A stretch of DNA of 50,445 nucleotides from a virus (IMGVR_UViG_3300030339_000005); one strand, 5' to 3'. Counted from the first letter of the stretch, positions 19,007-38,278 are shown. Translations and numbers: made by a program. The notes: a model not told the origin generated them from the sequence alone.

Positions 19007-19486
19007 ATGGCTTATAGCTATCATGAAAGAACAATATCTAACTTAGGATATACTATAGATAAAGAAGGTAATTGTTATAATTCTAAGGGTAAGTTACTTA
19101 AAGGAACTATAGCTAATACTGGTTATCGTGTTGTTAGCACAACAATTGATGGCAAAACTATAAAGATAGGATTACATAGATTTCAAGCATATCAGAAATA
19201 TAATGATGAAATCTATAAAGAAGAAAATGAGGTAAGACATTTAAACGGTATTAGAAATGATAATTCATGAGATAATATTGAAATAGGTACTCATTCAGAT
19301 AACATATTAGATATTCCTCAAGATATCAGAATTAGGGTTGCAAAAAATGCGTCTACGAAGTATGATCAAAAATTAGTTGATGAAATAAAACATGATAAAG
19401 AATTAGGCCCTTCTTATAATCAAATTATGGTTAAATATAATATTAGTAGTAAAGGGACAATTAGTTATATTATTAATCAACGATAA
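19007..19486 (+). CDS. HNH homing endonuclease with one in-frame TGA (19268)
   Basis: VRHLNG...DNS(TGA)DNIEIGTHSDN; frame open to TAA 19486 with C-terminal HTH. Confidence 0.8.
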
Positions 19487-19489
19487 ACT

Positions 19490-19575
19490 GGAGAAGACAA
19501 CCTGTGGGGAATAGGGCTTGCCTGCTAAGCAATGCGCTCATTTACATGAGTTCGTGTCGGACACGAGTTTCTCCG
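19490..19575 (+). tRNA. tRNA-Ser(GCT), non-canonical D and T arms
   Basis: GGAGAAG/TTTCTCC-G acceptor, TTGC-CTGCTAA-GCAA, long variable arm, T-loop GTCGGAC. Confidence 0.7.
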
Positions 19576-19691
19576 CATATAGAAAGAAGGGAGTAACAAC
19601 GCAAGTTGACTTTGAAAATCCAACCCGATAATATTGCTCTCTCTGTGAATTCTTTTAATCCACGTTTCTTTGTCAAGTAAATGGGAGTCAT

Positions 19692-19765
19692 GCGCATTTA
19701 GCTCAGTTGGTTAGAGCACCACACTGATAATGTGGGGGTCCCAAGTTCAAGTCTTGGATTGCGCA
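19692..19765 (+). tRNA. tRNA-Ile(GAT)
   Basis: CCACA-CTGATAA-TGTGG. Confidence 0.92.
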
Positions 19766-19782
19766 CAATTAAAACCTTAGAT

Positions 19783-19932
19783 ATGGGAACATTTATAGTT
19801 ATTGGAATGTTTATGTTGTTTTTTATACTATTTTTTCGAGGTATGGAGAACATAGGTCGGTATAATCATGCCGAAGATAAAGCAATCGAAAAAGAATTAG
19901 AGGAGTTAAATAAATTAAAAATTAAAGAATAA
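19783..19932 (+). CDS. Small membrane protein
   Basis: N-terminal TM segment; TAATG coupling. Confidence 0.5.
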   Translation: MGTFIVIGMFMLFFILFFRGMENIGRYNHAEDKAIEKELEELNKLKIKE

Positions 19933-20198
19933 TGACGCTAGGAGAAATTCACCAGATAATGAGAGAAGCCGGCTTCACTTATTTTGATGGTTATAGTGGT
20001 ACAGACGATAAGGTTTATATCACTTTTTCAAAAGGTTACAATGGACGAGGAGACGCGATTGAATTTCACTTTAATCCTGGTTCTATAACCATTAAAACCT
20101 ACTATCAAGATGAAGATAGTAAAGACTACTTAGAGTACACTCATTATAATGCTTCAATCGCATTGAAGAATATATTGAATGCGCATAAGAGTAGTTAA
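19932..20198 (+). CDS. Hypothetical protein
   Basis: ORF. Confidence 0.55.
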   Translation: MTLGEIHQIMREAGFTYFDGYSGTDDKVYITFSKGYNGRGDAIEFHFNPGSITIKTYYQDEDSKDYLEYTHYNASIALKNILNAHKSS

Positions 20199-20205
20199 AT
20201 TCATC

Positions 20206-20279
20206 GGGCCTGTAGCTCAGTGGTAAGTAGCAACTGACTCATAATCAGGAGGTCGGGGGATCATTACCCTTCGGGCCCA
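20206..20279 (+). tRNA. tRNA-Ile2(CAT), lysidine type (inferred)
   Basis: GGGCCTG acceptor typical of Ile2; CTCATAA loop; T-loop ATCATTA. Confidence 0.75.
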
Positions 20280-20293
20280 CAAATTTTAAAAAT

Positions 20294-20710
20294 ATGAAAG
20301 AAAAATTTACACCTTACGAATTAGCAATAAAGTTAAAAGAAGCTGGCTTTGATGAAGGAGTTTTTGCTTACTTCAATACAACATCTGACACGCCTTCTGA
20401 ATTACAATTTCCAGAATATGGTGGCGAAGTTGATAATTGGAATCAAACGACACATATTGTTTCAGCTCCATTATGGCAGCAAGCAATAGATTGGATTAGA
20501 GAAAAACATAAATTAATGATAGATTCACCAAAACCAGACCAATGGAATCAGGATAGCTGGTCTGTTAGAATTGAGAGTATGGACAAAACGATTGTCCTTG
20601 AAGCATATGTTGATCAAGAATATTGGAGAATATATAGATGTCACAAATCATATCAAGAAGCAAGAGAACAATCTATTCTAAAAGCATTAGAACTAATTAA
20701 TAAAGAATAA
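20294..20710 (+). CDS. Hypothetical phage protein
   Basis: LA.KLKE.GF...AP..Q.A..W.REKH...YEEA pattern. Confidence 0.65.
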   Translation: MKEKFTPYELAIKLKEAGFDEGVFAYFNTTSDTPSELQFPEYGGEVDNWNQTTHIVSAPLWQQAIDWIREKHKLMIDSPKPDQWNQDSWSVRIESMDKTIVLEAYVDQEYWRIYRCHKSYQEAREQSILKALELINKE

Positions 20711-20827
20711 TATGAGATACTTTTTAGGAACATCAATGTTTTTAATGATTTACTTCGGACAACCTCGATATCCTCAAAATCTCGTGGTTCATGTTGAAAA
20801 TCATATTCTTATTTCCGAATAAGATAT

Positions 20828-20910
20828 GCCTGTATAGCAAAGTGGCCAAACGCGTCTGACTGTAACTCAGATTCCTTACGGATTCAGAGGTTCAAATCCT
20901 TTTGCAGGCA
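20828..20910 (+). tRNA. tRNA-Tyr(GTA)
   Basis: TCTGA-CTGTAAC-TCAGA, variable arm. Confidence 0.9.
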
Positions 20911-21100
20911 CAAACACTCAGAGGGTTAACTGAGTTATCAAAGAGTATCATAAAGTGAGTTATCTCTTTTACGATCAAAAAATAGCTATATTAGGACACA
21001 TTTGAGAATTAAGTCGGGTTGTTCCCGCAGGTCGAATTACCTGGGTCAATTATTCAAATTAAAATGTGTAGCAAGAGTAATTAACTTGCTACACACACTT

Positions 21101-21173
21101 GCCCCTGTAGCTCAGTGGCCAGAGCGGCACTTTTGTAAAGTGCGGGCCGGCGGTTCGATCCCGTCCAGGGGCT
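21101..21173 (+). tRNA. tRNA-Thr(TGT)
   Basis: GCACT-TTTGTAA-AGTGC. Confidence 0.93.
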
Positions 21174-21190
21174 CAATTAAATTTATAGAT

Positions 21191-21427
21191 ATGGAAAAGA
21201 CAATTGAAGAAGTAAAGAAAGAATTACTTGATAATGTTATTATAACGACGCCAAGTAGAGCTTTCGCAGGAGGGCAGAGTTGTGGAATGGTGGATTGGTC
21301 AGTTAAACTTTATCAAGGGGATTTAGACATTACAATTTCTATTGGAAATTTCCATAGCATTCGTGAGAATAAAAGTTTGGCTATGACTTTAATGGAATTA
21401 GCTATTGATGAAGTAATTAAAGATTAA
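21191..21427 (+). CDS. Hypothetical protein
   Basis: ORF with GGQSCG. Confidence 0.55.
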   Translation: MEKTIEEVKKELLDNVIITTPSRAFAGGQSCGMVDWSVKLYQGDLDITISIGNFHSIRENKSLAMTLMELAIDEVIKD

Positions 21428-21428
21428 T

Positions 21429-21857
21429 ATGGATAATGATTTAAAAACCTCAGTTGAATGGCAAAGATTGTGTCCTTCTCCTAAAGTTATTGGCTTTGAG
21501 GGATGGAATGGTGAAGACCAATGGCAAAATGTTGAGATGTCTTATCTAGAATATCAACAAAGAGTGTTTCTAAGTACTTGTGCATTTATTAGTTTATCGC
21601 CATCAATAAGAGTTATTCCAGAGTATGGAACTCCAGGAGGTCTGGTATCAGGAACTGAATTATTAACACAAATTCTGGAAAGAGATGCTAGGACATCCCA
21701 AATAATGGCTAATACTGCTGTTATGAGCCCTCCAGATTTTCTAGGATTATTACACGATGTTCCAGCACCATCAAGAACAGATCCTCAAATTATTTCTAGT
21801 GCTGAGAGAAAAAGGATTAGAGAACAAATAGAAAGATTATGTGGGGACAGGGAATAA
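21429..21857 (+). CDS. Hypothetical protein
   Basis: ORF. Confidence 0.55.
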   Translation: MDNDLKTSVEWQRLCPSPKVIGFEGWNGEDQWQNVEMSYLEYQQRVFLSTCAFISLSPSIRVIPEYGTPGGLVSGTELLTQILERDARTSQIMANTAVMSPPDFLGLLHDVPAPSRTDPQIISSAERKRIREQIERLCGDRE

Positions 21858-22137
21858 AAGGAGATTTTGATGTTCTTCAATTTTTGAAGGACGAGGGTTA
21901 TTTAGTTGATGAAGAAGTCGATGAAATTGTAGATGACGATGAAAATGACGATTATTGGGAAAAATTATGGGACGTGAGTTCATAGAAAAACAATTTAGAA
22001 GTGAAGTTGAGATGCTTAAATTTATTCAAGATCCCAAAAGAGTTGCTAAAGTGAGAGAAAAGTATCCATCTGATAAATATGTATCAAGAATGGATTTTGA
22101 TAAGAGACAGTTAATTATTACAGAGAAATAAGTAGAT

Positions 22138-22221
22138 GCCTAAGTGGCGAAATTTGGTTATACGCGTATGCCTTAGGAGCATATGTCTTGCGACGTGTCG
22201 GTTCGAGTCCGACCTTGGGTA
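22138..22221 (+). tRNA. tRNA-Leu(TAG)
   Basis: TATGC-CTTAGGA-GCATA. Confidence 0.92.
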
Positions 22222-22232
22222 CTTAAAACCTT

Positions 22233-22622
22233 ATGATTATGAAAACAGTTATTGTAGAAAACACATTTTTAAAAAGACAGTATGATATTCCAGATGAAAA
22301 GCCTATTATAATGGACTTTGGTTGGGGTAATGGTTATGCTCTTATTCCAATTGATCATCCATTATTTGGACGACACTATGATGATATCAATGAACATATT
22401 GATATTCATGGTGGTCTTACTTTTAGTGCTTTTGTAAATGAAGGTTTGATTCAAAGCTTCGGGATTGATCCAGAATATGATGGTTACTGGTGTGTTGGTT
22501 TTGACACGTGTCATTATCAAGATACATTAGCAAGATGGCCAAAAGAAGCTGTTCAAATAGAAGCAGATGAGTTAGCTCGTCAATTAGAATTATTTGAGGT
22601 TGCTTGGAATAACAACTTATAA
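22233..22622 (+). CDS. Conserved phage protein
   Basis: GWGNGY..HP..G..YD...IHGGLTF...W.VGFDT.H. Confidence 0.7.
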   Translation: MIMKTVIVENTFLKRQYDIPDEKPIIMDFGWGNGYALIPIDHPLFGRHYDDINEHIDIHGGLTFSAFVNEGLIQSFGIDPEYDGYWCVGFDTCHYQDTLARWPKEAVQIEADELARQLELFEVAWNNNL

Positions 22623-22671
22623 AAATTGCTCGAGGAGAAGCATATAGGATGAAAATCTCATCTCCCAACTC

Positions 22672-22744
22672 GCGGGAATAGCTCAATTGCTAGAGTGCCT
22701 CTCTTCCAAAGAGGAAGTTGTCGGTTGGAACCCGGTTTCCCGCA
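22672..22744 (+). tRNA. tRNA-Gly(TCC)
   Basis: CCTCT-CTTCCAA-AGAGG. Confidence 0.85.
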
Positions 22745-22841
22745 CAATAAGGTTCAGAATTCAACACTGGAAAACTAATTAAATTTATTCCAGGTCTTAG
22801 CGTTTACGCAAGTAAGAATAAAAACAAAGCCTTATCTCCAT

Positions 22842-22915
22842 GGTGTTTATAGTGTTAGCGGATAGCACGGAAGTTTGTGGAGCTTTTAGGTACAGTTCGA
22901 ATCTGTATAGACACC
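22842..22915 (+). tRNA. tRNA-His(GTG)
   Basis: Encoded G-1:C73; GAAGT-TTGTGGA-GCTTT. Confidence 0.88.
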
Positions 22916-22932
22916 CAATTAATTAAAAAAAT

Positions 22933-23547
22933 ATGGCATATATTTATTGTATTACAAATCAAATTAATCAAAAGAAATATGTAGGTAAATCTACTAGTTG
23001 TATTGAACAAAGATGAGCTGAGCATTGTAGAGATGCAAGAAAAGAAAGATGTGAGAAAAGACCTCTATATAATGCTATACAAAAATATGGAGTTGAAAGT
23101 TTTCAAATTGAACTATTAGGGAAATATTCTGAAATAGATTTAGATTTCTATGAAAATTATTGAATTTGTGAACTAGATACATATAAAAATGGTTATAATG
23201 CCACTTTAGGAGGAGACGGAGCTATATTATTTGATTATAAATTAATTGTAGATACTTATAATCAAACAAAATGTACTCGAAGGACTTCAGAAATAATTGG
23301 CTGCTGTCTTGATACTATAAGAAAAGTATTAACTTTATATAATATAAATTTTAATACTAAAGAAGTAGTTCAATTAAATGGAGAAATTATTATTAATTCA
23401 TTTAAATCTATTACAGAAGCTTCTGAATGAATTTTTAATGAGGGCATATCTAAAGCTGCTTTAAGAAGCATATCTTCAAAAATTAGTGCAAATTGTAAAG
23501 GAAAAACAAAGTCAGCATTTAAAGATGAGTGAAGATATTTGGATTAA
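22933..23547 (+). CDS. GIY-YIG homing endonuclease with four in-frame TGA (23014, 23161, 23428, 23530); absent from ORF track
   Basis: MAYIYCITN..N.KKYVGKS...EQR*AEH...YGVESF...ENY*I...NGYN.T.GGDG; NUMOD-like tail; 204 codons with no other stop. Confidence 0.85.
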
Positions 23548-23710
23548 TCCCATTAATCACCCAGTGTGCCAAGTAAAGCCTCTTATTGAGAAATACAATA
23601 ACGTAACTTGTCTAGATAGTCTTAGTATGGTGCACCAACTAAGTAACAACGCTCTAGAAAACAAACAGGCTCAAGGGAGGTCTTTAGTGGTGAAAGCCAT
23701 TCCCTACTAC

Positions 23711-23782
23711 GGGGATATAGTTCATCGGCTAGAACGTTTGACTGTTAATCAAAGAAGAGTGGTTCGATTCCATTTATCCCCG
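23711..23782 (+). tRNA. tRNA-Asn(GTT)
   Basis: TTTGA-CTGTTAA-TCAAA. Confidence 0.9.
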
Positions 23783-23791
23783 CAAATAAAT

Positions 23792-23863
23792 TGTCCTATA
23801 GTGTAGTGGTAACTACGTCAGTTTTTGGAGCTGAAATCCTAGGTTCGAATCCTGGTGGGACAA
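23792..23863 (+). tRNA. tRNA-Gln(TTG)
   Basis: U1-A72; TCAGT-TTTTGGA-GCTGA. Confidence 0.9.
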
Positions 23864-23880
23864 CATTTAAAACAAATAAT

Positions 23881-24147
23881 ATGAAAGCAAAGTTTAAAGT
23901 TGGTGATAAAGTCATTATTAAAACTCTAGATTCTCAATATGGTAAGCAGAAAATGGCTGGAGAAATTGGACACATTGGAATAGTAAATTCGGTCTTTTTA
24001 GATACTTCGGATTCATCAATACATTGGTATCGTATGACTCCGACTGCTCCAGGACTCTGTTGGCCAGAGGATTGTTTGGAACTTGTTGAACCAGAACTTT
24101 CTACTTTTGAAGAATTAAGAAAAACTTCAGATATTACGTTTGTGTAA
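23881..24147 (+). CDS. Small SH3/KOW-like protein
   Basis: KFKVGDKV...W.E..LELV. Confidence 0.6.
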   Translation: MKAKFKVGDKVIIKTLDSQYGKQKMAGEIGHIGIVNSVFLDTSDSSIHWYRMTPTAPGLCWPEDCLELVEPELSTFEELRKTSDITFV

Positions 24148-24365
24148 TTTCTATCTATGCCATTCTAGAGGGGTGTAGGTCATTTACTCTTTGAGGATTA
24201 TAAGGGCGGTTGTTCCGATAATGCATCAGTTTTTGTTAGCTTTTGTGATTAAAACAAGCTAAATATTGGGAGAACCTAGTTCTTCTGAACAAATGATAAC
24301 TGCACTATGTCAGTTTATCTAAAGAATAGGAGACAGGTGTTTTCGGACACCTGTTCTTTAAAAAT

Positions 24366-24451
24366 GCCCATGTGGTGAAATCGGTAAACACAGCAGACTT
24401 AAAATCTGCCGATCAGTAATGGTCTTAGGGGTTCAAGTCCCCTTTTGGGTA
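24366..24451 (+). tRNA. tRNA-Leu(TAA)
   Basis: GCAGA-CTTAAAA-TCTGC. Confidence 0.9.
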
Positions 24452-24531
24452 CAGTAGGGATAAGCAAATATAAAGTAAATTTATTAAGATGCTTACGGGG
24501 GTTAGTGTTTAGTCGCTTATCCCTATTTTTT

Positions 24532-24605
24532 GGTGCGTTAGTTCAGTTGGTTAGAATGCTTGCCTGTCACGCAAGTGGTCACGGGTTCGAGCCCCGTACG
24601 CACCG
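24532..24605 (+). tRNA. tRNA-Asp(GTC)
   Basis: CTTGC-CTGTCAC-GCAAG. Confidence 0.94.
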
Positions 24606-24606
24606 C

Positions 24607-24635
24607 GAGGGAGTCCATATTGGGCTCCCTTTTTT
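24607..24635 (+). terminator. Rho-independent terminator closing the tRNA array
   Basis: GAGGGAGTCC-ATATT-GGGCTCCCTT followed by T run. Confidence 0.8.
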
Positions 24636-24665
24636 ATTAATTATTTTTTTTTAAATCACAGAGTT

Positions 24666-25061
24666 ATGATTACATCTAAGCATTTGTTGTCGCTGAAAGA
24701 TTTCCAAACAGTACTCGTAGAGTACCTTCGTAAAAAGGACAAATTTGTTCCTTACATCAAAGAAACTGAAATGGGACTCGTTCCTGAAATTGCCTACATG
24801 AAAGGCCAAATTTACGGTATTGTTGTTTCAATTGGCCCAGGTCTTATTGGCTGGGCACTATGTGACCGAAAGGACACATTTAGTAAAGAATATGGTATTC
24901 ACCTGGCTTTACAACGCGCTCGCATTGCTACAAGTCTTTCCCTTCGTGAAAGACGCCGTTTCTACAGCAAAATTCCCACTTCCTTAGGCGAATTGTTCGA
25001 TAAAATGGACGATCGCTCTGAAAAGTATTTCAAAATTGACGACGATTCTTCAGACGAATAA
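24666..25061 (+). CDS. Hypothetical protein
   Basis: GW.LC...D.FSK..G...AL.RA pattern. Confidence 0.65.
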   Translation: MITSKHLLSLKDFQTVLVEYLRKKDKFVPYIKETEMGLVPEIAYMKGQIYGIVVSIGPGLIGWALCDRKDTFSKEYGIHLALQRARIATSLSLRERRRFYSKIPTSLGELFDKMDDRSEKYFKIDDDSSDE

Positions 25062-25064
25062 ATT

Positions 25065-25397
25065 ATGCTGACTATCAAAGACAAAGAGTTTGAGATGGTA
25101 CAAGTAAAGGGCACTCCATTTTTTAATCTAAGCATTTTAACTCCTATCAATCTTGGTAAAGAGAATGAAAGGATGGAAATGAAATTACTAGGTTATGGAT
25201 TGCCCTTTGAAACCTGTCTACAAACTATGGTAAGTATCAAACTTAGTCATAAGGAAGATACATGTACCGTGCTAGAATACATAAGTTTGTATAAAGCCAC
25301 TGTAGAAGAGATATCAAAGCTAATTTCAGAAGAGGAAACACAACCTATCGAACCTGGCCTTACCGACACAGAACATGAAAACACTCACGATTGTTAG
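25065..25397 (+). CDS. Hypothetical protein
   Basis: ORF. Confidence 0.6.
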   Translation: MLTIKDKEFEMVQVKGTPFFNLSILTPINLGKENERMEMKLLGYGLPFETCLQTMVSIKLSHKEDTCTVLEYISLYKATVEEISKLISEEETQPIEPGLTDTEHENTHDC

Positions 25398-25626
25398 ATC
25401 TATTGAACATGCCACATTAGTTGATTGTGGCTCAGTCCTTCTTAGAAAAGGGACAATTCTTGTAAAAAACAATGATAGTATTATTGGATTCATTATGTAT
25501 AATGAAAGAGATGATACTTGGGAAATGTTTCTTAATGGAGAATTTGTAACTTCAACTGATGAATTTATCGAATTTTTTGAGCCGGAATATGCTCAATACA
25601 CTTACCAATTATCTATTCAAAATTAA
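25375..25626 (+). CDS. Hypothetical protein (resembles 32668..32931)
   Basis: G.I.V......IGF.....D.W pattern shared. Confidence 0.55.
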   Translation: MKTLTIVRSIEHATLVDCGSVLLRKGTILVKNNDSIIGFIMYNERDDTWEMFLNGEFVTSTDEFIEFFEPEYAQYTYQLSIQN

Positions 25627-25631
25627 AAATT

Positions 25632-27644: not shown

Positions 27645-27648
27645 TAGC

Positions 27649-27683
27649 ATAGGGAGAGCCTTTATGGTTCTCCCTATTTTTTT
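27649..27683 (+). terminator. Rho-independent terminator
   Basis: ATAGGGAGAGCC-TTTAT-GGTTCTCCCTAT followed by T run. Confidence 0.85.
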
Positions 27684-27701
27684 AACATTTAAATTTAATC
27701 T

Positions 27702-28016
27702 ATGATTATTGAGGAAGCAGATTTCAAGATTGTACAAGATGGCAATAGCTATACTCTATATTGTCTTAAATCTAAAAAAGAATTAGAAACTAACTCAACA
27801 GATAAATTTAAAATTGGTGGATATTATACAACATTTGATGGAGCATTAAAAGGTGCTGCAACATTTAGAAAGAGTAAGAAGTATCCTGGAAAAGAATTAT
27901 CTACAACGCTTACAGCTTCTTTAAAAGAATATAAGCAAAGTAAAGAAACTTTCAAAACCTTAGTGAGTAAGGTTTATCAACCTATTTTTGAACTAAAAGA
28001 TAAATTGAAATTATGA
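27702..28016 (+). CDS. Hypothetical protein
   Basis: ORF; ATGA overlap. Confidence 0.6.
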   Translation: MIIEEADFKIVQDGNSYTLYCLKSKKELETNSTDKFKIGGYYTTFDGALKGAATFRKSKKYPGKELSTTLTASLKEYKQSKETFKTLVSKVYQPIFELKDKLKL

Positions 28017-28222
28017 CTATTACTACTGAATTTTCAGTTCCTGACTCTGTTTTTGTTCTAAATGGACAAGTTCGCCAAGGCGAAGTTGCAGAAGTTAAAG
28101 TTTCTTCATCAGCTAATAAACAAATCGTTACTTATATGGTAAAGATTGGAGAAAATGATTATGCTCTTGTTGATGAGAATCGTATTGGTAAAACAAAAGA
28201 AGAATTATTGAAAAAATTATGA
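28013..28222 (+). CDS. Small SH3-like protein
   Basis: ORF ending TKEELL; ATGA overlap. Confidence 0.6.
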   Translation: MTITTEFSVPDSVFVLNGQVRQGEVAEVKVSSSANKQIVTYMVKIGENDYALVDENRIGKTKEELLKKL

Positions 28223-28935
28223 GTAAAGTAAGAATCTGCGCAATCAGTGATATGCATGGAATTTTACCTGAAAATATTGAACCTTGTGATATTTTATTTA
28301 TTGGTGGGGATATTAGTCCATTTGACATACAGTTAAATATGTTAGCTATGCGAGAATGGATCACTACGACCTTCGCATACTGGATTAATAGTCTACCAGT
28401 AGATAAAGTATACCTAGTACCTGGAAATCATGATTTCTATTTTCAAGGACTAGCGAGATATAAGTTACTCGAGTTTTTACAAAGTACTCACTTTAAAGTG
28501 TGTGTTTTAGAAAATGAATCGGCTTTATATAGATGTGAGGATGGGTCCAGGATAAGTATCTTTGGAACACCTTATTGTCATATATTTGGTAGATGGGCTT
28601 ATATGAGGGCGCCTGATTATTTAAAAGAGGCTTTTTCTGAAATTCCTGAAGAAGTGGATATTATTCTAGCACATGATGCACCTTTTAATGTAGGTGGACA
28701 AGATGTTATGACTGAATTACCACGACATAGAGAACAACCTGGGCATATTGGCAACCCGGAACTAGCTGAGAGGCTGGGCCAAATAAAATATAAATGGTTA
28801 ATACATGGCCATATTCATAGCTCTGAACATATTCCAGAAGAATTCAATGGGGGTTTAGTAGTAAACGTAAGTTTAATGAATGAAGAATGTAGCGATCTTA
28901 TTTACGAACCTTTTTATTTCGAATTTGAGACATGA
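28219..28935 (+). CDS. Calcineurin-like metallophosphoesterase
   Basis: SDMHG, GGDI, GNHD, GHIH. Confidence 0.9.
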   Translation: MSKVRICAISDMHGILPENIEPCDILFIGGDISPFDIQLNMLAMREWITTTFAYWINSLPVDKVYLVPGNHDFYFQGLARYKLLEFLQSTHFKVCVLENESALYRCEDGSRISIFGTPYCHIFGRWAYMRAPDYLKEAFSEIPEEVDIILAHDAPFNVGGQDVMTELPRHREQPGHIGNPELAERLGQIKYKWLIHGHIHSSEHIPEEFNGGLVVNVSLMNEECSDLIYEPFYFEFET

Positions 28936-28953
28936 AACACATTAATTTTATAA

Positions 28954-29550
28954 ATGATGAATAGGACTTGGATAATGAGCGATACTCATTATGGACATAT
29001 AAACATCTGTTATGGTACCTCTCGTTGGAAAGATAAAGAAGTATCATGTCATCGCTTTAACACTGTTGAAGAGATGAATGATGCCATTGTAAAATCTATC
29101 AATGATGTAGTAGATCAAACAGATATAATCTATTTCTTAGGAGATTGGTCTATGTCTGGTGTTGAGAACATCTATAAATTTTTCTCACGCTTAATTTGCA
29201 AGAATATTTTCTTTGTTCCTGGAAATCATGATGAGCATATAATTAAAAATCATCTAAGTTTGGGCATAGCTCCAGAAGATATGTTTCATATTCTTCCAGA
29301 GTTATATACTTTGTATTATCGTGGTTATAAATTTATTTTATCTCATTATCCTATTGAACAGTGGAAAGATATGGGTAAGGGAGCTATTCATTTACATGGG
29401 CATACGCATCATGTTCTTGATAAGTCAGTAGATAATACTAAATACAAACGAATGGATGTTGGGTGGAAACCTACTGGTCCATGGCTTCTTGATGATATCA
29501 TTGAAATAATGGATAAACGGGAAGTTAAACAACATTGTGAGAATGATTGA
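28954..29550 (+). CDS. Calcineurin-like metallophosphoesterase
   Basis: SDTHYGH, LGDW, GNHD, HYP, HGHTH. Confidence 0.9.
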   Translation: MMNRTWIMSDTHYGHINICYGTSRWKDKEVSCHRFNTVEEMNDAIVKSINDVVDQTDIIYFLGDWSMSGVENIYKFFSRLICKNIFFVPGNHDEHIIKNHLSLGIAPEDMFHILPELYTLYYRGYKFILSHYPIEQWKDMGKGAIHLHGHTHHVLDKSVDNTKYKRMDVGWKPTGPWLLDDIIEIMDKREVKQHCEND

Positions 29551-29938: not shown

Positions 29939-29943
29939 ACCTT

Positions 29944-30504: not shown

Positions 30505-30505
30505 A

Positions 30506-31807: not shown

Positions 31808-31810
31808 GAT

Positions 31811-32677
31811 ATGAGCGGAACGTTGATGGAAGAAAAACTAAAAGCAGCGATTGAAAATAAGAAAGTTGACTTAAATAGTTTTATTTGGAAAGGAAATAAA
31901 GTATTAGATTCCACCGGAAAATATAAGCAGTCAGAGAAGAAACTAACTTCTATGGCCGAATACGAATTAAATAGTTGTTATGAACACTGTAAAACTATGC
32001 TATTTAACAAGGATTTACAAAATCCTGGTAGATATGTAGTTTTAGAAGAAATAGCAGATCAAAAAGATAGATGTGGGGCAGAATTATTTTTACGTCACGT
32101 TGACCAACGTAACGGTTTAAGTAGATTCACACTTCTTGGATCAATAAATGAGTTCTTAAAGAATAACAAAGAGGCGCTTAAGAACGTAAAGCCTGTAGTA
32201 GGCACTGTCTTTTCAAACACTCCAGCTGAGTTTGAAAAGATTCCATTAAATTTAATTATTGATGGATGTTTAGATCGGCTGGGCACATTTAACAAAAAAC
32301 ATATAACCAGAACTTTTATTTTAAAACAAGGGATTTGGTTAACCCCAACTGAATCAAAAGAATTAATTGAGTCTGATATCCAAGGAAATATTAGAGATAG
32401 AATTGAAGTTATTAGAGAGCGTTTAAATATAAAAGAGATTGAACATCTCTATATTAATTCGAAAGGATTAAATTATACTCAAATGCGAGCTATGCTTAAT
32501 ATTCGTCCTAATAAGAAATATATGGATTTAACAACTATGCAGTTAGAAACTTTAAGATATAGAATGTTATTCAATCTTGAAGAAACTGTTAAAGAACATA
32601 TAGCTGCTTGGGAAAGACGTATGGAAGAGATTGATTTAGTTGCCGATTATAAAGGATTTAAAGTACAATGTCAGTAA
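31811..32677 (+). CDS. Conserved hypothetical phage protein
   Basis: Long ORF upstream of polymerase. Confidence 0.7.
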   Translation: MSGTLMEEKLKAAIENKKVDLNSFIWKGNKVLDSTGKYKQSEKKLTSMAEYELNSCYEHCKTMLFNKDLQNPGRYVVLEEIADQKDRCGAELFLRHVDQRNGLSRFTLLGSINEFLKNNKEALKNVKPVVGTVFSNTPAEFEKIPLNLIIDGCLDRLGTFNKKHITRTFILKQGIWLTPTESKELIESDIQGNIRDRIEVIRERLNIKEIEHLYINSKGLNYTQMRAMLNIRPNKKYMDLTTMQLETLRYRMLFNLEETVKEHIAAWERRMEEIDLVADYKGFKVQCQ

Positions 32678-32931
32678 GAGTAATATCACAAGAAATGCAA
32701 GGGGATGGATTTATCTCCCCACAAGAAGTAGATAATGGAAAATATATTGGTTCAATCTTTGTCGTTGAAATGGATGAGCCTGATGAAGTAGTCGGATTTG
32801 TTTATCATGATGTAGACGATGATTATTGGATTATGGAAACGAGAGATTTCATATCTGATAAATTTGAATCATTTACTGATTTGTTTGAGAATTATCTCGA
32901 CGAAGAAGTTGAGCTATTTGTTAAAGAATAA
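32668..32931 (+). CDS. Hypothetical acidic protein
   Basis: ORF. Confidence 0.55.
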   Translation: MSVRVISQEMQGDGFISPQEVDNGKYIGSIFVVEMDEPDEVVGFVYHDVDDDYWIMETRDFISDKFESFTDLFENYLDEEVELFVKE

Positions 32932-32933
32932 TT

Positions 32934-34907
32934 ATGATTTACTTAGTAAGTAATCAGACTAATGCTTTTGGAGGAGAATTCACACAGATACCTCTTTTAG
33001 AAGCAATAGAAATGTTATCACATATTCAGTTTATTGGTGCAGATACCGAAACTGAAGGTCTAGATTGTTTTACTAAGAAGCTTTTAACTGTTCAATTAGG
33101 AAATGCTGAATTTCAAGTTGTTTTCGATATAGCATCGTATGAGGGTAAGATCCCTCAAGAATTAAAGTTTTTTCTAAATAACTTCGATGGGACGTTTATC
33201 CTGCAAAACGCAAAGTTTGATTTAAAATTCTTATATCGGCAAGGAGTTGTCTTGAAACATGTTTATGACACCATGTTAGTAGAGACTATTCTAACCATTG
33301 GATTACAGATGGCCGGTAGAGACTTAAAGACACTTTGTGAAAAGTATTGTCAAGTAGAACTTGACAAATCTATTCGAGGAGAAATAATTACAAAAGGGCT
33401 AAATGCCGCAGTTATTAGATATGCAGCATATGATGTTGTGTATTTAGAAGATATAATGACTAAACAAATGAGACAAGTCAACCACTTGCGTTTAAATAAC
33501 GCAGTCATACTTGATAATGAGTTTGTCAAAGTGTTAGCATATATCGAATATTGCGGAATTAAGCTTGATTGGAAAACATGGAAAGAAAAATCTTTAAGAG
33601 ACTTAGAAGTAGTCGCAGCAAAGAAGGAGGCTTTAGATGGATGGTTGTATGATCATAAACTAATGAAATATTTTAGTGGAATGCAAGATCTCTTTACAGG
33701 AAGAATGGATTGTATTCTGAACTGGAACTCTCCTTTACAAGTTGTAGAATTATTTGAATCTTTAGGGATTAACTGTACAACAGTTGATAAGGGAGTGTCT
33801 AAGAAAACAGCAGAAGAAAAAGCAATTGGGAAATATAAAGACCAATATCCTATTCTAAAATTATACTTTGAGTATAAAGCTGCTGTAAAATTAACATCAA
33901 CTTATGGATTAACTTGGGAAAGTATGATCAATCCGGTTACTCATAGAATTCATACAACCTTTCAGCAGATAATGAATACTGGAAGGTTATCGAGTGGTAA
34001 CATGAGAGAAAATAAACCTAATCTTCAAAATCTTCCTTCAGACCATTTAACCAGAGGTTGCTTTATTTCTGAAAAGGGATATAAGTATATTGCCGCTGAT
34101 TATTGTGCGCAGGAATCTATAATTCTGGCAGATTTCTCACAAGATGAGAGTCTGCTAGCATTTTATAGAAAGGGCTTTGAGGATATGCACAGCTATGTGA
34201 CTTTTCTTCTATTTCCAGAAGTACGAAGGTGCGCCCTCGACGATCTAACCAATGAGGAATTAATTTGGATTAAGAAGAATTTTAAGGAAAAGCGAAATAT
34301 TGCTAAAACTGCAGAGTTTGCAATTAACTATGGAGGTAATGGTAGTACTATCGCAAAAAACACAGGACAGAGTAAACAACAAGGAGAATTCGTCTATAAA
34401 AGTTATTTTGATGCCTTTTATAATTTAAAGACATATTATGACGTAGGTATGCAACAAGTAGAAAGGGATCACTATATCCTCTTTAATAATGTAACTGGTA
34501 GAAAATTGTTCTTTGGAGCAGAAGAGCCTTTTATAAAATATAAAGAAGATGTAGCAGATCCTTTCTTTTGGCAACGTCCAGATGCGAGAAGCATTCATGG
34601 TGAGTATACTAAAAGTAGATCTGAGGTACAGAGAAAGTCTCAGAATTATCGAATTCAAGGATCAGCAGCGGATTGTTCGAAATTAGCTGGCGTGATGTTT
34701 TTTAATCAACTAATTCAGCGTGGACTATTATTTACTGTGAAAATAGTAAATATGGTTCACGATGAATTTAATGTTGAAGCTCCTGACGAAATAGCAGAAG
34801 AAATGTCAGATTTACTAATTAAATGTATGTCAAAAGCTGGAGATCAATTTTGTAAAACAGTGCCTTTAACTGCAGAAGCAGAGATTGGTGATCATTGGAT
34901 ACATTAA
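32934..34907 (+). CDS. polA: Family A DNA polymerase (3'-5' exonuclease plus polymerase)
   Basis: DTETEG, NAKFD, YAAYDV, TGRLSS..PNLQN, ADYCAQE, R..AK...F...YG, IQGSAAD, VHDE. Confidence 0.95.
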   Translation: MIYLVSNQTNAFGGEFTQIPLLEAIEMLSHIQFIGADTETEGLDCFTKKLLTVQLGNAEFQVVFDIASYEGKIPQELKFFLNNFDGTFILQNAKFDLKFLYRQGVVLKHVYDTMLVETILTIGLQMAGRDLKTLCEKYCQVELDKSIRGEIITKGLNAAVIRYAAYDVVYLEDIMTKQMRQVNHLRLNNAVILDNEFVKVLAYIEYCGIKLDWKTWKEKSLRDLEVVAAKKEALDGWLYDHKLMKYFSGMQDLFTGRMDCILNWNSPLQVVELFESLGINCTTVDKGVSKKTAEEKAIGKYKDQYPILKLYFEYKAAVKLTSTYGLTWESMINPVTHRIHTTFQQIMNTGRLSSGNMRENKPNLQNLPSDHLTRGCFISEKGYKYIAADYCAQESIILADFSQDESLLAFYRKGFEDMHSYVTFLLFPEVRRCALDDLTNEELIWIKKNFKEKRNIAKTAEFAINYGGNGSTIAKNTGQSKQQGEFVYKSYFDAFYNLKTYYDVGMQQVERDHYILFNNVTGRKLFFGAEEPFIKYKEDVADPFFWQRPDARSIHGEYTKSRSEVQRKSQNYRIQGSAADCSKLAGVMFFNQLIQRGLLFTVKIVNMVHDEFNVEAPDEIAEEMSDLLIKCMSKAGDQFCKTVPLTAEAEIGDHWIH

Positions 34908-35143
34908 TGAAAACAAAAAAGAAAGTGAAAAAATTATACGAAATTGGAGCTGAAGTTTGGATTACACCAATTGACGGCGATCCAAGAGCAGCAAAAGTCG
35001 TAGGATATATTGATTATCCACGCGTTATCCCTATTGTTGAATTTATGGGCAAAACTGGTACTCTAGTAAAGAATTCTTTTGATTATGCAAGAATTTGTCA
35101 TTACAATGATAGACCAGAACATGAACTTTTTGAAAATGGATAA
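34907..35143 (+). CDS. Small SH3-like protein (paralog of next)
   Basis: Y.IG..VWI.P....PR.A...GY...YNDRP. Confidence 0.6.
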   Translation: MKTKKKVKKLYEIGAEVWITPIDGDPRAAKVVGYIDYPRVIPIVEFMGKTGTLVKNSFDYARICHYNDRPEHELFENG

Positions 35144-35351
35144 TCAATATTTAATAGGTGAAGTTGTGTGGATCCGCCCCTCCAATGCAACACCGAGAGA
35201 AGCAACAATTAAAGGTTATGATCCAACTGACGGAGTCCCTCTGATAAGATATCAAGGGGATAATGGAGAGTGGCATGAGAGTAGATTCTCTACTTTACTC
35301 ATGAGTACTTATAATGACCGACCAGATATTGATGAAAATATTAACGGTTAG
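35136..35351 (+). CDS. Small SH3-like protein
   Basis: Same motif as the previous gene. Confidence 0.6.
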   Translation: MDNQYLIGEVVWIRPSNATPREATIKGYDPTDGVPLIRYQGDNGEWHESRFSTLLMSTYNDRPDIDENING

Positions 35352-35353
35352 TT

Positions 35354-35833
35354 ATGAAAACTATAAGAAACGGTGTTTTTGAGACCAATAGCTCATCTTC
35401 ACATTCAATTTCTATTGGACCTTACGAAGAAGTACAATCCCTAAGGTGGGAATCAGTTTTTGAAATAGAGGAAGGAAAGGCTATTTTATACCCAGGAAAA
35501 TTAAGCACACATGTTAAGTATCTAGGAGAAGCTTCACAGACAAGATGTGAAACTTTATTTGATAAGTTAGCAATGGTTGTTAATTGGCTCCAGGGCCTTA
35601 GAGATGACTCTTGGTTAACTTTAGATGAATTTGATATCGCTATTCTTAGAATTAAGGAAGATTTTGAGCTTGATGATATTGTGTTTAGTACTTATTCTGA
35701 TTATTATCCATATTCTGAATATGGTGATAATCCATTTTCTAGGGAAGAGAATTTTCAGGAAGACTTCGAAGGCCTACTAAAAGTCGTACGAGATAATACT
35801 CAAGTAATCATTGATGAAGACATTCCAAACTAA
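35354..35833 (+). CDS. FETNSSS-motif protein 1
   Basis: N-terminus MKTIRNGVFETNSSSSHSISI. Confidence 0.75.
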   Translation: MKTIRNGVFETNSSSSHSISIGPYEEVQSLRWESVFEIEEGKAILYPGKLSTHVKYLGEASQTRCETLFDKLAMVVNWLQGLRDDSWLTLDEFDIAILRIKEDFELDDIVFSTYSDYYPYSEYGDNPFSREENFQEDFEGLLKVVRDNTQVIIDEDIPN

Positions 35834-36219
35834 TGAAGATAATATGTAGAAGCATATTTGAAACTAATAGTTCGTCAACTCATAGTACAACCATTATGAC
35901 TGTTGAGGATTATCAAGAATGGAAAAAAGACATCTTGTGTTATGATGAAGATAGTCACAAACTTATTACTAAAGAAGAACGTCTAGCAATGGCTAGAGAG
36001 AGTTATGAGAAATATCAAGTTCATTCTAGTCCAAATACTATTCCAGACGTAATTACTGATGAGCAAATTGAAGCTCATATTGAAGAAGAGTTAGATGAAT
36101 TTCCACAAACTTATTCAGACTATAAAGCTATTGCAGGAGATTATGAAACTGATACAAATCAATTTACTACTCCTGGCGGTGAAGAAATTATAGTCCTTTG
36201 TTATTACGGTTATAATTAA
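35833..36219 (+). CDS. FETNSSS-motif protein 2
   Basis: N-terminus MKIICRSIFETNSSSTHSTTI. Confidence 0.75.
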   Translation: MKIICRSIFETNSSSTHSTTIMTVEDYQEWKKDILCYDEDSHKLITKEERLAMARESYEKYQVHSSPNTIPDVITDEQIEAHIEEELDEFPQTYSDYKAIAGDYETDTNQFTTPGGEEIIVLCYYGYN

Positions 36220-36229
36220 ACCAAATTAC

Positions 36230-36655
36230 ATGAAAACAATTAGATACAACATTTTTGAAACAAATAGTTCTTCTTCTCACTCTATTACTGTGAGTCGAAG
36301 TGGTAATTATGTAAATGATTCTCTTTTTCCAGAGCCTAATTCAGCTGAACCAGTAATTCTCTTAGATGGTGGTAATTTTGGTTGGGGTGTGGATGTGTTT
36401 ACAGATTCAAATACAAAAGCAAATTATTGTGCTATTGATTTTGCTGCAAATGATGAGCCGATTAAACTTATACTTTTACAGAAAGTTATTGAGGATATGA
36501 CTGGCTGTAATGTAGTAATTGATTTAGACGATTTTTCTCATATTGATCACCAAAGTATTGGAACAGCTGATGATGAACTTATGGATTATCAGGATATAAA
36601 GGACTTCGTCTTTAATCCTGAATCAGAGTTGCTCATTGATAATGATAATCATTAA
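36230..36655 (+). CDS. FETNSSS-motif protein 3
   Basis: N-terminus MKTIRYNIFETNSSSSHSITV. Confidence 0.75.
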   Translation: MKTIRYNIFETNSSSSHSITVSRSGNYVNDSLFPEPNSAEPVILLDGGNFGWGVDVFTDSNTKANYCAIDFAANDEPIKLILLQKVIEDMTGCNVVIDLDDFSHIDHQSIGTADDELMDYQDIKDFVFNPESELLIDNDNH

Positions 36656-36667
36656 AAGATAAAACAA

Positions 36668-37558
36668 ATGGAATTACTTTATAAATATCAAAATGGAAAT
36701 GTTCTCGTTTCTATTTTTGATGATGGAACAAAAATACAAGAGTGGCCTGATGACGAAGCTCCAGCTCCCATTTATCCGAATTCAATGGATGTTAAGATTA
36801 CAAATAAATGTAACTTAGGTTGTAAATTTTGTCATGAAATGTCTGTTCCTGATGGAAAACATGCAGATCTTAGTGATTTGCTTGAGATTCTTGAGGATCT
36901 TCCAGCTGGTACAGAATTAGCTTTGGGTGGTGGTAATCCACTTGAACATCCTTGGCTTAAGTCATTTCTTATGGTTTGTCAAGATTGGGAATTTATTCCA
37001 AATCTTACAGTTAATGGTAAGCATGTTGAAAAATATGCTGACTTACTCAATACTTTGATTGACGAAAGGTTAATCTATGGCTTGGGTGTGTCTATTGAAG
37101 ATGACTTTGATTTTGCTATTATGGATAAAATCCATAATGTATCTAATGTTGTTTATCATGTTATAGCTGGTGTAAATGATTATACCATTCTAGACAAAAT
37201 AAAGGACAGGATGGGCAAGGTATTGGTCTTAGGATACAAAGATGTTGGCAGAGGCATAACTAATCATTCTGAACTTACTGATGTACTTCAGAGTGAGTGG
37301 TTTGGTCATATCAAACTTTATATTCATAGACTCCACATGTCTTTTGATAACCTAGCGGTTAAGCAATTAGACATTAAATCTTATTTATCTCCGGAAGAAT
37401 GGGATGAATTCTATATGGGAACTGACGGACAGTTTACTATGTATATAGATGCTGTTAGTCAAGAGTTTGCAGTTTCTTCTACTTCAGTAACTCGTTATCC
37501 ACTAAAAGGAACTATTGAGGAAATTTTCTCGAAAGTTCAAAGTGAACCAAAAAATTAA
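36668..37558 (+). CDS. Radical SAM enzyme
   Basis: CNLGCKFC (CxxxCxxC), GGGNP, TVNG. Confidence 0.9.
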   Translation: MELLYKYQNGNVLVSIFDDGTKIQEWPDDEAPAPIYPNSMDVKITNKCNLGCKFCHEMSVPDGKHADLSDLLEILEDLPAGTELALGGGNPLEHPWLKSFLMVCQDWEFIPNLTVNGKHVEKYADLLNTLIDERLIYGLGVSIEDDFDFAIMDKIHNVSNVVYHVIAGVNDYTILDKIKDRMGKVLVLGYKDVGRGITNHSELTDVLQSEWFGHIKLYIHRLHMSFDNLAVKQLDIKSYLSPEEWDEFYMGTDGQFTMYIDAVSQEFAVSSTSVTRYPLKGTIEEIFSKVQSEPKN

Positions 37559-37627
37559 CACAAAAAATTTGGTAAAGTCAGAAAAAATGCTTATCTTGTA
37601 GTATAATTCTAAAGTAAAAAATAAGAA

Positions 37628-38278
37628 ATGAAACAAGGTTTAATCTATAAATACACTTCACCAAGTGGTAAAAGTTACATCGGGCAAACATCTGATGAAA
37701 ATTGACGAATGAAGTGTCATAAAAGTTCAAATTGTAAGACTAAGTTTAATTCTGCCATTAAAAAGTATGGTTTTGAAAATTTTACATATGAAATTTTATT
37801 TAAAACTTCTTTTACCAAAGATTTGGAAAAATTAAAAGATGTGCTTAATCAAATGGAAATTGCCTTTATTGAATATTATAATTCATTTAATAATGGTTAT
37901 AATCTAACTAAAGGTAGGGAGGGTGCATTAGGAGTTAAGTTATCGCAAGACGCTTTGGAAAAGTGTAAGAATACTAGACGACTTAAAAATCCAACATGAG
38001 GTGATAAATTACTAGTCATTGATGCTACTATAAAAAGAGAGGCAGCTAACATTAGACGCCAAGAGAAATTACGGCAGTTAGAAAAACGAAGACGACCTCG
38101 TATTTTACAATATGATTTAAATTTTAACTTAATTACGAAATGACAAACTCTTTCTGATATTAACAAATGCTTAGGTCTTTGTGAAAATGGAATTAGAACT
38201 TGTTGTCGAGAAAAGAGACTTAATTATAAGAGTTATATTTGGAGATACGAAGAAAAAGAAAAGAATGAGAAACTATAA
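37628..38278 (+). CDS. GIY-YIG homing endonuclease with three in-frame TGA (37703, 37997, 38141)
   Basis: GLIYKYTSPSGKSYIGQT...KYGFENF...E..FI..Y.S..NGYNLT.G; NUMOD-like ILQYDL...ITK*QTL...YIWRY. Confidence 0.8.

What the first reader, a model, noticed from the sequence alone, without database searches (positions are those of the whole stretch)
19007..38278. Mosaic genetic code: eight in-frame TGA in three homing endonucleases while TGA still terminates neighbouring genes
Seen: HNH 19007-19486 (1 TGA), GIY-YIG 22933-23547 (4 TGA, no TGG) and GIY-YIG 37628-38278 (3 TGA, 1 TGG) are otherwise fully open. Most TGAs fall at positions typical for Trp (EQR*AEH, ENY*I, ASE*I, E*RY, ITK*Q, DNS*DN). 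Random decay would also give TAA, TAG and frameshifts. Yet resident genes use TGG and end in ATGA overlaps (5126, 28013, 28219, 31508, 38552). Established: TGA-to-Trp recoded phages exist, including crAss-like ones. Inference: either these elements came from a code-4 relative and are silenced here by a code barrier, or their expression is gated by conditional UGA readthrough.
Basis: partly seen in the sequence, partly recalled or inferred. Interest (0 to 1): 0.85.

Follow-up and report, generated by a model that had tools for sequence, protein, structure and literature searches.

The report
Homing endonucleases written in phage's late code
Three selfish DNA-cutting genes in the early, standard-code half of a 178-kb crAss-like phage use TGA for tryptophan, as the phage's own late genes do, so they are most likely translated only once the phage's TGA-reading tRNA is active; this kind of recoding is already known in gut phages.

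Summary
The HNH gene (19007-19486) and two GIY-YIG genes (22933-23547, 37628-38278) carry 8 in-frame TGA, 1 TGG, no TAA or TAG and no frameshift. The other 93 plus-arm genes have 196 TGG and one doubtful internal TGA; eight of them end in TGA.

The explanation lies outside the window. The genome (178,320 bp, one contig) has a minus-strand late block (71.4-154.6 kb) with 209 TGA against 60 TGG. TGA columns there swap with TGG in relatives, so TGA means Trp. A tRNA(UCA) sits at the head of that block.

The endonucleases therefore use the resident late code. They are neither silenced immigrants nor decaying. Their TGA columns are Trp in T4 I-TevI and in homologues. TGA positions are kept at 49-68% identity, with dN/dS of 0.25-0.5. 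Homologues in TAG-recoded phages carry TAG instead.

Late-gene recoding is published (Yutin 2021, Borges 2021/22, Babkin 2025). Borges already proposed TGA gating of an intron endonuclease. This scan has also noted recoded endonucleases on other DNA (e1-3777572, e1-3497004).

One extra item: the tRNA(UCA) has an additional arm whose loop mimics the Trp anticodon loop (GUCCAAA).

The parts
19007..19486 (+). Free-standing HNH (HNH_3/NUMOD4) homing endonuclease gene, 159 aa, with one in-frame TGA at 19268-19270. Its ATG lies 23 nt after tRNA-Ser(UGA) 18898-18983.
   Evidence: The TGA falls on the only Trp-rich column of 132 homologues (W 62, Y 24, F 17).
22933..23547 (+). Free-standing I-TevI-like GIY-YIG homing endonuclease gene, 204 aa. 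It has TGA at 23014-16, 23161-63, 23428-30 and 23530-32 and no TGG. Its ATG lies 16 nt after tRNA-His 22843-22916.
   Evidence: TGA 28 and 77 align to Trp in T4 I-TevI (PDB 1MK0/1LN0). All four columns are W or aromatic in 119 homologues, and TGG is the commonest codon in standard-code relatives at three of them. TGA is kept at the same four codons in L090 at 68% identity, dN/dS 0.25.
37628..38278 (+). Second GIY-YIG-type homing endonuclease gene, 216 aa. It has TGA at 37703-05, 37997-99 and 38141-43 and one TGG. It lies 69 nt after a radical-SAM gene.
   Evidence: The nearest homologue (L093, 64% identity) has TGA at the same three codons and also at our TGG codon. Column 172 is W/F in the family; columns 26 and 124 are variable or in an indel. 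dN/dS is 0.35.
16347..16430 (+). Phage tRNA-Trp(CCA), 84 nt, with an enlarged variable region. It shares G1-U72, C2-G71, G3-C70, G73 and the anticodon stem with the tRNA(UCA) outside the window.
15218..15292 (+). tRNA(CUA), an amber suppressor with no visible use: TAG is not recoded anywhere in this genome.
   Evidence: All 30 genes ending in TAG have non-coding in-frame continuations. Phage Lera is reported to show the same.
27702..29550 (+). Four consecutive resident genes (27702-28016, 28013-28222, 28219-28935, 28954-29550) that end in TGA, three of them with ATGA overlaps. A TAA or TAG follows 2-25 codons later in frame.
   Evidence: The in-frame tails after the TGA have no coding signal.
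46025..46483 (+). RusA/Hjc-like resolvase gene. Its only ATG precedes an in-frame TGA (46058-46060), and there is no ATG, GTG or TTG between that TGA and the conserved KG..YER motif. It may be a fourth TGA-dependent nuclease gene in this arm.
   Evidence: The PHROG match starts at residue 27, after the TGA. Not resolved.

Best explanation
The window is part of the standard-code (replication, tRNA, early/middle) arm of a complete 178-kb crAss-like phage. Its opposite, virion-and-packaging arm is written with TGA=Trp. The phage encodes a tRNA(UCA) at the head of that late arm. The three homing endonuclease genes are intact, selected genes that use this late code. Two of them sit 16 and 23 nt behind tRNA genes, so they have no room for a promoter of their own and are presumably transcribed with the tRNA cluster. 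Ribosomes would stop at the first TGA (codons 26-88) until the tRNA(UCA) is abundant enough to outcompete release factor 2. Full-length endonuclease would therefore be made only in the late phase. This is the same outcome that T4 reaches for I-TevI, segB and mobE with hairpins that hide the ribosome-binding site. Shown here: TGA=Trp, the arm-specific code, the tRNA(UCA), selection on the endonuclease genes, and their tracking of the resident code. Inferred: the timing, tRNA(UCA) as the decoder, and that the delay is the selected function.
For: Genome layout: reading TGA as sense merges the minus strand into ORFs of up to 4301 aa with 39 TGA. The late block has 209 TGA and 60 TGG in 40 genes. 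The plus arm has 1 TGA and 196 TGG in 93 genes. The endonucleases have 7-8 TGA and 1 TGG. TGA=Trp: our TerL's 8 TGA columns hold TGG or TGA interchangeably in 63 relatives. TGA cells in 45 distinct TerL sequences align to W 283, Y 52, F 41 and never to S or G. Two TGA in the first GIY-YIG gene align to Trp of T4 I-TevI. Decoder: a tRNA(UCA) folds as a cloverleaf and scores 38 bits against the tRNA-Sec model. It keeps every pair, with 5 compensatory changes, against L171. A tRNA(UCA) lies 6-9.5 kb upstream of TerL in 18 relatives. No release factor or TrpRS gene was found in the genome. Selection: TGA stays at the same codons at 49-68% identity, and dN/dS is 0.25-0.50. Code tracking: 8 of 8 homologues examined in recoded phages carry the resident recoded codon. 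These are 4-5 TGA in L089, L090 and L093, and 2-7 TAG in L091 and L177-L180. Their neighbours are almost free of it. Other recoded neighbours are HNH, PD-(D/E)XK or LAGLIDADG-like genes. Precedent: Borges et al. made the same proposal for an Agate-phage intron endonuclease. T4 limits translation of its endonucleases to late times.
Against: There are no expression data, so 'early' and 'late' rest on gene content and strand. The tRNA(UCA) is below Rfam's gathering score and was missed at that threshold. Its shape is unusual and its charging is unknown. Not every endonuclease in such phages is recoded: the NUMOD4/HNH gene next to the L093 homologue has 0 TGA and 3 TGG, and Lera's HNH genes are listed without suppression. 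A 520-aa endolysin-like gene just upstream of TerL has no TGA, so recoding does not mark every late function. Many database homologues were themselves called with code 4, so the protein-level 'W' counts are partly circular. The codon-level checks and the I-TevI alignment were used to get round this.
Confidence: 0.72

Rival explanations
1. Passive drift. The endonucleases are translated late for other reasons. In any gene translated only when the suppressor is present, TGG-to-TGA is neutral and is favoured by A+T pressure. TGA is then a footprint of late translation, not a gate.
For: The TGA share of Trp codons in the endonucleases (about 88%) equals that of the late block (78%; Fisher p = 1.0). 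The genome is 32.5% G+C. TGA and TGG swap freely at the same TerL columns among relatives.
Against: Two of the genes lie 16-23 nt after tRNA genes with no room for a late promoter, so another late-limiting device would be needed and none is seen. This differs from the best explanation only in which came first; the decoding is the same.
Confidence: 0.2
2. Immigrants from a code-4 relative, silenced here by a code barrier.
For: The genes are mobile. Homologues sit in different contexts, and two distant relatives with the same radical-SAM neighbourhood lack the third gene.
Against: The resident phage reads TGA as Trp in 31 of 40 late genes and encodes a tRNA(UCA). dN/dS is 0.25-0.5 downstream of the first TGA. 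Homologues in TAG-recoded phages carry TAG, not TGA.
Confidence: 0.03
3. Decaying pseudogenes.
For: Homing endonuclease genes often decay after fixation.
Against: There are eight TGA and no TAA, TAG or frameshift (P = 4.5e-5). The TGA codons fall on Trp or aromatic columns. The I-TevI catalytic motifs are kept. TGA positions are conserved across 49-68% identical homologues.
Confidence: 0.02
4. UGA is read mainly by the phage tRNA-Trp(CCA) through near-cognate (Hirsh-type) decoding, or by a host factor. The tRNA(UCA) would be accessory or have another role.
For: Borges et al. detected a TGA suppressor tRNA in only 35% of TGA-recoded phages.
Against: A 4301-aa ORF with 39 TGA needs near-complete decoding per codon, which is more than near-cognate reading usually gives (inference). 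A tRNA(UCA) is conserved at the same place in 18 relatives.
Confidence: 0.08

Closest known systems
Stop-codon-recoded (code 4, TGA=Trp) crAss-like phages with standard-code early genes and phage suppressor tRNAs: Yutin et al. 2021 (PMC7886860); Borges et al. 2021/2022 (10.1101/2021.08.26.457843); phage Lera, Babkin et al. 2025 (PMC12386605)
   Same: Genome of about 178 kb; two opposed arms; a tRNA cluster in the forward arm; TGA=Trp mostly in virion and packaging genes; both tRNA(UCA) and tRNA(CUA) present with only TGA in use; several homing endonucleases in the forward arm.
   Different: It is not Lera, because the gene and tRNA order differs. TerL is only 27-46% identical to named GenBank phages. 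Lera's HNH endonucleases are listed without suppression, whereas here all three recognisable endonucleases are recoded.
Agate-phage group I intron endonuclease that prefers TGA over TGG (Borges et al.)
   Same: An endonuclease inside early, standard-code DNA carries recoded stops. The authors propose that the stops prevent endonuclease production until late.
   Different: The genes here are free-standing, not intron-borne. They belong to two or three nuclease families, in a crAss-like lineage. Homologues in sister phages carry TAG instead.
T4 I-TevI, I-TevII, I-TevIII, segB and Aeh1 mobE: late-only translation through hairpins that hide the ribosome-binding site; promoter-less free-standing seg and mob cassettes (Edgell et al. 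2010, PMC2988022)
   Same: GIY-YIG and HNH endonuclease genes embedded in early or middle transcription units, some without their own promoter, with translation limited to late times. The first GIY-YIG gene aligns to the I-TevI catalytic domain.
   Different: The proposed device here is codon meaning (a suppressor tRNA is required), not mRNA structure. The timing here is untested.

Membership tests
Phage with late-gene TGA=Trp recoding | In-frame TGA in conserved late genes at Trp columns | tested here: met
   TerL has 8 TGA, all at columns where relatives hold TGG, TGA or Phe/Tyr codons. The late block has 209 TGA and 60 TGG.
Phage with late-gene TGA=Trp recoding | Early and replication genes compatible with the standard code | tested here: met
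   93 plus-arm genes have 196 TGG and 1 doubtful internal TGA. Eight of them end in TGA, with non-coding tails after it.
Phage with late-gene TGA=Trp recoding | Phage-encoded tRNA with anticodon UCA | tested here: met
   ARAGORN call; cloverleaf fold; 5 compensatory pairs against L171; a tRNA(UCA) at the matching place in 18 relatives. Caveat: 38 bits is below Rfam's cut-off of 47.
Phage with late-gene TGA=Trp recoding | Host uses the standard code | not testable with these tools
   The host is unknown. A standard-code host is inferred from TGA avoidance in the early arm and from TerL's best named relatives being phages of Bacteroides and Flavobacterium.
GIY-YIG homing endonuclease (I-TevI type) | GIY...YIG motifs plus Arg27, His31, Glu75 and Asn90 equivalents | tested here: met
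   Gene 22933-23547 scores 36.1 bits in Pfam and aligns to residues 5-91 of I-TevI with IY, YVG, R, H, E and N kept. Gene 37628-38278 scores 19.6 bits, below cut-off, but has the IY and YIG motifs, matches the first gene's family HMM at 3e-15 and has homologues with NUMOD1 and I-HmuI-like domains.
HNH homing endonuclease | HNH_3 catalytic motif with a NUMOD-type DNA-binding module | tested here: met
   HNH_3 scores 28.4 bits (cut-off 24.8). NUMOD4 is weak at 17.3 bits. There are 1173 homologues at E <= 1e-10.
Homing endonuclease (any family) | Site-specific cleavage and mobility into endonuclease-free alleles | not testable with these tools
   Only indirect evidence: homologues lie in different gene contexts, and the third gene is absent beside the radical-SAM gene in two distant relatives.
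Zeta group of crAss-like phages | Placement in the Zeta clade by TerL, MCP and portal phylogeny; genome of 145-192 kb | tested here: inconclusive
   The size fits (178 kb), and TerL and portal hit crAss-type PHROGs. No tree was built. The nearest named TerL is 46% identical, and classic crAss-like TerL sequences are 27-30% identical.

The most novel reading that the evidence does not exclude
Two linked readings remain possible. (1) Writing selfish nucleases in the late code is a general, selected containment rule in recoded phages. Free-standing GIY-YIG, HNH, PD-(D/E)XK and LAGLIDADG genes in the standard-code arm take up whichever stop codon the resident phage has reassigned (TGA or TAG). This delays their translation and confines them to phages of the same code. 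(2) Decoding here depends on a two-armed suppressor tRNA. Its real anticodon arm (UCA) reads UGA. An extra arm shows a copy of the tRNA-Trp anticodon loop (N-U-CCA-A-A), which could recruit tryptophanyl-tRNA synthetase, whose main identity element is the CCA anticodon.
Probability: 0.35. Interest if true: 0.72.

Novelty: new member of a known kind. Interest (0 to 1): 0.42.

Why it matters
For annotation: these three genes, and the whole late arm, are broken into fragments by a table-11 gene caller. A table-4 caller in turn over-extends the eight or so early genes that really end in TGA. The genome needs arm-aware, dual-code calling.

For biology: codon choice reveals when a gene is translated. 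It shows that mobile nucleases in these abundant phages are tied to the late programme, as in T4 but by another device.

The code tracking (TGA in TGA phages, TAG in TAG phages) also implies that recoding limits which phages an endonuclease can invade. The odd tRNA(UCA) offers a testable idea for how a standard-code host's TrpRS charges a suppressor.

Tried and rejected
- Megablast of 18000-25000 against GenBank phages found only tRNA-Asp matches.
- Rfam at gathering score found no tRNA outside the window. The tRNA(UCA) appears only below threshold, under the tRNA-Sec model.
- An exact scan of IMG/VR for the anticodon arm gave 17 unrelated stretches, only one of them a tRNA(UCA). The relatives were found through TerL synteny instead.
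- No release factor (PF00472) or class Ib synthetase (PF00579) gene was found in the genome.
- TAG recoding was tested and rejected.
- The minus-strand ORF in the group I intron (6343-6909) has no Pfam family at E <= 0.05, so it was not counted as an endonuclease.
- A PDB sequence search for the HNH gene found nothing.
- Comparison of the radical-SAM neighbourhood in two distant relatives showed no endonuclease there. The downstream genes were not conserved either, so this is weak evidence for insertion.
- Promoter motifs upstream of the three genes were looked at by eye only and gave nothing firm.
- The protein-level 'W' counts turned out to be partly circular, because many database proteins were called with code 4. 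They were replaced by codon-level tests and the I-TevI alignment.
Full report
**1. The observation**

The HNH gene has one TGA. The first GIY-YIG gene has four TGA and no TGG. The second GIY-YIG gene has three TGA and one TGG. The frames are otherwise open.

Pfam supports HNH_3 (28.4 bits) and GIY-YIG (36.1 bits). The third gene is below cut-off at 19.6 bits. It matches an HMM built from the second gene's family at 3e-15. The ATGA overlaps at 5126, 28013, 28219, 31508 and 38552 are real.

**2.

The window is bases 8980-59424 of a single 178,320-bp contig (32.5% G+C). Its first 50 bases recur about 180 bases before its end. It is an IMG/VR virus record rated 100% complete.

If TGA is read as sense, the minus strand between about 71.4 and 154.6 kb merges into giant ORFs, for example 4301 aa with 39 TGA and 10 TGG. 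Plus-strand genes hardly change. That block encodes the large terminase (TerL), the portal and tail-like proteins.

A codon-usage-guided gene set gives these counts:

| Gene set | Genes | TGA | TGG |
|---|---|---|---|
| Plus arm, 1-70.7 kb | 93 | 1 | 196 |
| Late minus block | 40 (31 with TGA) | 209 | 60 |
| The three endonucleases | 3 | 7-8 | 1 |

Stop codons in the plus arm are TAA 75, TAG 10 and TGA 8. The endonucleases differ from their neighbours (Fisher p = 2e-11) and not from the late genes (p = 1.0).

Genome-wide, these plus-strand genes have truly internal TGA:
- the three endonucleases;
- a tail-lysozyme gene at the very end of the arm (genome 70740-71426);
- a 603-aa ORF (161817-163628);
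- perhaps a RusA/Hjc-like resolvase (window 46025-46483).

**3. TGA means Trp**

TerL has 8 TGA. Database homologues show W at all eight columns. Many of those proteins were themselves called with code 4, because all 63 IMG/VR relatives have TGA in TerL. I therefore repeated the test on codons.

At our TGA columns the relatives hold TGG and TGA interchangeably, for example 34 TGG against 27 TGA at codon 68, plus Phe and Tyr codons. Over 45 distinct TerL sequences, TGA cells align to TGG-encoded W 283 times, Y 52, F 41, E 11, R 1 and H 1, and never to S or G.

For the endonucleases:
- TGA 28 and 77 of the first GIY-YIG gene align to the two Trp of the T4 I-TevI catalytic domain (EKRW and ENFWIKEL). 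The catalytic residues are kept.
- All four of its columns are W or aromatic in 119 homologues. In standard-code relatives TGG is the commonest codon at three of them.
- The HNH gene's TGA falls on the family's only Trp-rich column.
- For the second GIY-YIG gene, one column is W/F and two are variable or in an indel. The nearest homologue has TGA at all three.

**4. The genes are alive and track the resident code**

TGA sits at identical codons in L090 (68% identity) and at homologous codons in L089 (49%) and L093 (64%). dN/dS is 0.25, 0.50 and 0.35, with almost the whole protein lying downstream of the first TGA.

The chance that eight random nonsense hits are all TGA is 4.5e-5.

I examined eight homologues that lie in recoded phages. 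All eight carry the recoded codon of their resident phage:
- 4-5 TGA in L089, L090 and L093;
- 2-7 TAG in L091/L092 and L177-L180.

Surrounding genes carry almost none. The few recoded neighbours are again nuclease-like: HNH, PD-(D/E)XK, LAGLIDADG-like and HNH_2 genes. More distant homologues in standard-code phages have no internal stops.

This rules out the reading of a silenced immigrant from a code-4 relative.

There are exceptions. A NUMOD4/HNH gene in L093 has no TGA. Lera's HNH genes are listed without suppression.

**5. The decoder**

ARAGORN finds a 96-nt tRNA(UCA) on the minus strand at 161242-161337. Rfam misses it at gathering score. At a looser threshold it scores 38 bits against tRNA-Sec, where the cut-off is 47. 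It folds on its own into a cloverleaf with an extra arm.

In relatives, a tRNA(UCA) lies on the same strand 6-9.5 kb upstream of TerL in 18 loci. Most are ordinary 72-75-nt tRNAs. The one in L171 is like ours and keeps all 28 pairs, with 5 compensatory changes.

In our genome, the nine genes between this tRNA and TerL have 1 TGA and 14 TGG. L171 has the same order: tRNA, then standard-code genes, then recoded TerL.

No release-factor or TrpRS gene is present.

**6. How it most likely works**

The HNH and first GIY-YIG genes start 23 and 16 nt after tRNA-Ser and tRNA-His. They are therefore promoter-less cassettes inside the tRNA cluster's transcripts, as many T4 seg and mob genes are.

Until the tRNA(UCA) accumulates, translation should end at codon 26, 28 or 88. 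Afterwards full-length enzyme can be made.

A 39-TGA ORF implies that late decoding is nearly complete per codon (inference). The early genes that end in TGA would then be extended by 2-25 residues up to a backup TAA or TAG.

The timing itself is inferred, not shown. A passive version of this account cannot be excluded: TGA may simply accumulate in anything that is translated late.

**7. What is known**

- Late-gene TGA or TAG recoding with suppressor tRNAs in crAss-like phages was described by Yutin et al. 2021.
- Babkin et al. 2025 described the very similar phage Lera. It has both suppressor tRNAs with only TGA in use, and five endonucleases in the forward block.
- Borges et al. reported an Agate-phage intron endonuclease in an early gene that prefers TGA. 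They proposed that the stops hold back endonuclease production until late.
- This scan has also noted recoded endonuclease ORFs in TAG phages on other DNA (e1-3777572, e1-3497004).

The finding is therefore a new member of a known kind. The modest additions are free-standing genes of several nuclease families, and homologous endonucleases that take TGA or TAG according to their resident phage.

**8. Seen in passing**

Prompted by earlier scan notes, I looked at the extra arm of the tRNA(UCA).

| Locus | Extra-arm stem | Extra-arm loop |
|---|---|---|
| This genome and L171 | 6 bp | GUCCAAA |
| L129 / L133 | 8 bp, different sequence | CUCCAAA |
| L153 | 6 bp, different again | CUUCCAACC |

The window's own tRNA-Trp anticodon loop is CUCCAAA. 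So the stems differ while U-CCA-A is kept, a copy of the Trp anticodon loop.

The ordinary class II tRNAs of the window have 3-5-bp variable stems with 4-5-nt loops. A full-text search found no paper describing this. The extra arm could explain how a standard-code host's TrpRS recognises the suppressor. This is untested.

Noticed in passing
L008:1243-1338 (-) = genome c161242-161337; also L171:1331-1425, L129:1555-1654, L133:3836-3935, L153:990-1082: The tRNA(UCA) suppressors have an extra arm in the variable-arm position. Its loop copies the tRNA-Trp anticodon loop: GUCCAAA, CUCCAAA, or UCCAA within a 9-nt loop. The stems differ completely between lineages. Thirteen other tRNA(UCA) at the matching place in relatives are ordinary 72-75-nt tRNAs. 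It may be a decoy anticodon for TrpRS. Earlier scan notes describe similar arms on other DNA, and I found no paper on it.
   Followed up: partly
window 15218-15292: A tRNA(CUA) amber suppressor is present, but TAG is a true stop in this genome: all 30 TAG-ending genes have non-coding continuations. The same puzzle is reported for phage Lera.
   Followed up: yes
window 46025-46483: A RusA/Hjc-like resolvase gene has an in-frame TGA at 46058-46060, between its only ATG and the conserved KG..YER core, with no alternative ATG, GTG or TTG. It would be a fourth nuclease in the standard-code arm that needs TGA decoding.
   Followed up: partly
L002:11341-12027 (genome 70740-71426, +) and L008:1818-3629 (genome 161817-163628, +): Two further plus-strand genes use TGA and no TGG. 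One is a Phage_lysozyme2 tail-lysozyme gene at the convergent end of the arm. The other is a 603-aa ORF with no family match, lying next to the divergent region that holds the tRNA(UCA).
   Followed up: partly
L007:13253-14812 (-) (genome 155249-156811): A 520-aa endolysin-like gene and the other genes between the tRNA(UCA) and TerL carry almost no TGA (1 TGA, 14 TGG in nine genes). They form a standard-code 'middle' stretch at the head of the late strand. L171 has the same order.
   Followed up: partly
window 13156-13241 and 16347-16430: tRNA-Arg(UCU), 86 nt, and tRNA-Trp(CCA), 84 nt, are longer than normal class I tRNAs because of enlarged variable regions.
   Followed up: no
window 6136-6365 and 6343-6909 (-): Rfam finds a group I intron at 98.5 bits. 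The 188-aa minus-strand ORF inside or beside it has no Pfam family at E <= 0.05 and uses TGG, not TGA.
   Followed up: partly
window 19007-19021 and 22933-22947: The HNH and first GIY-YIG genes belong to different families, yet both open with Met-Ala-Tyr-x-Tyr (MAYSY, MAYIY) directly after a tRNA gene.
   Followed up: no
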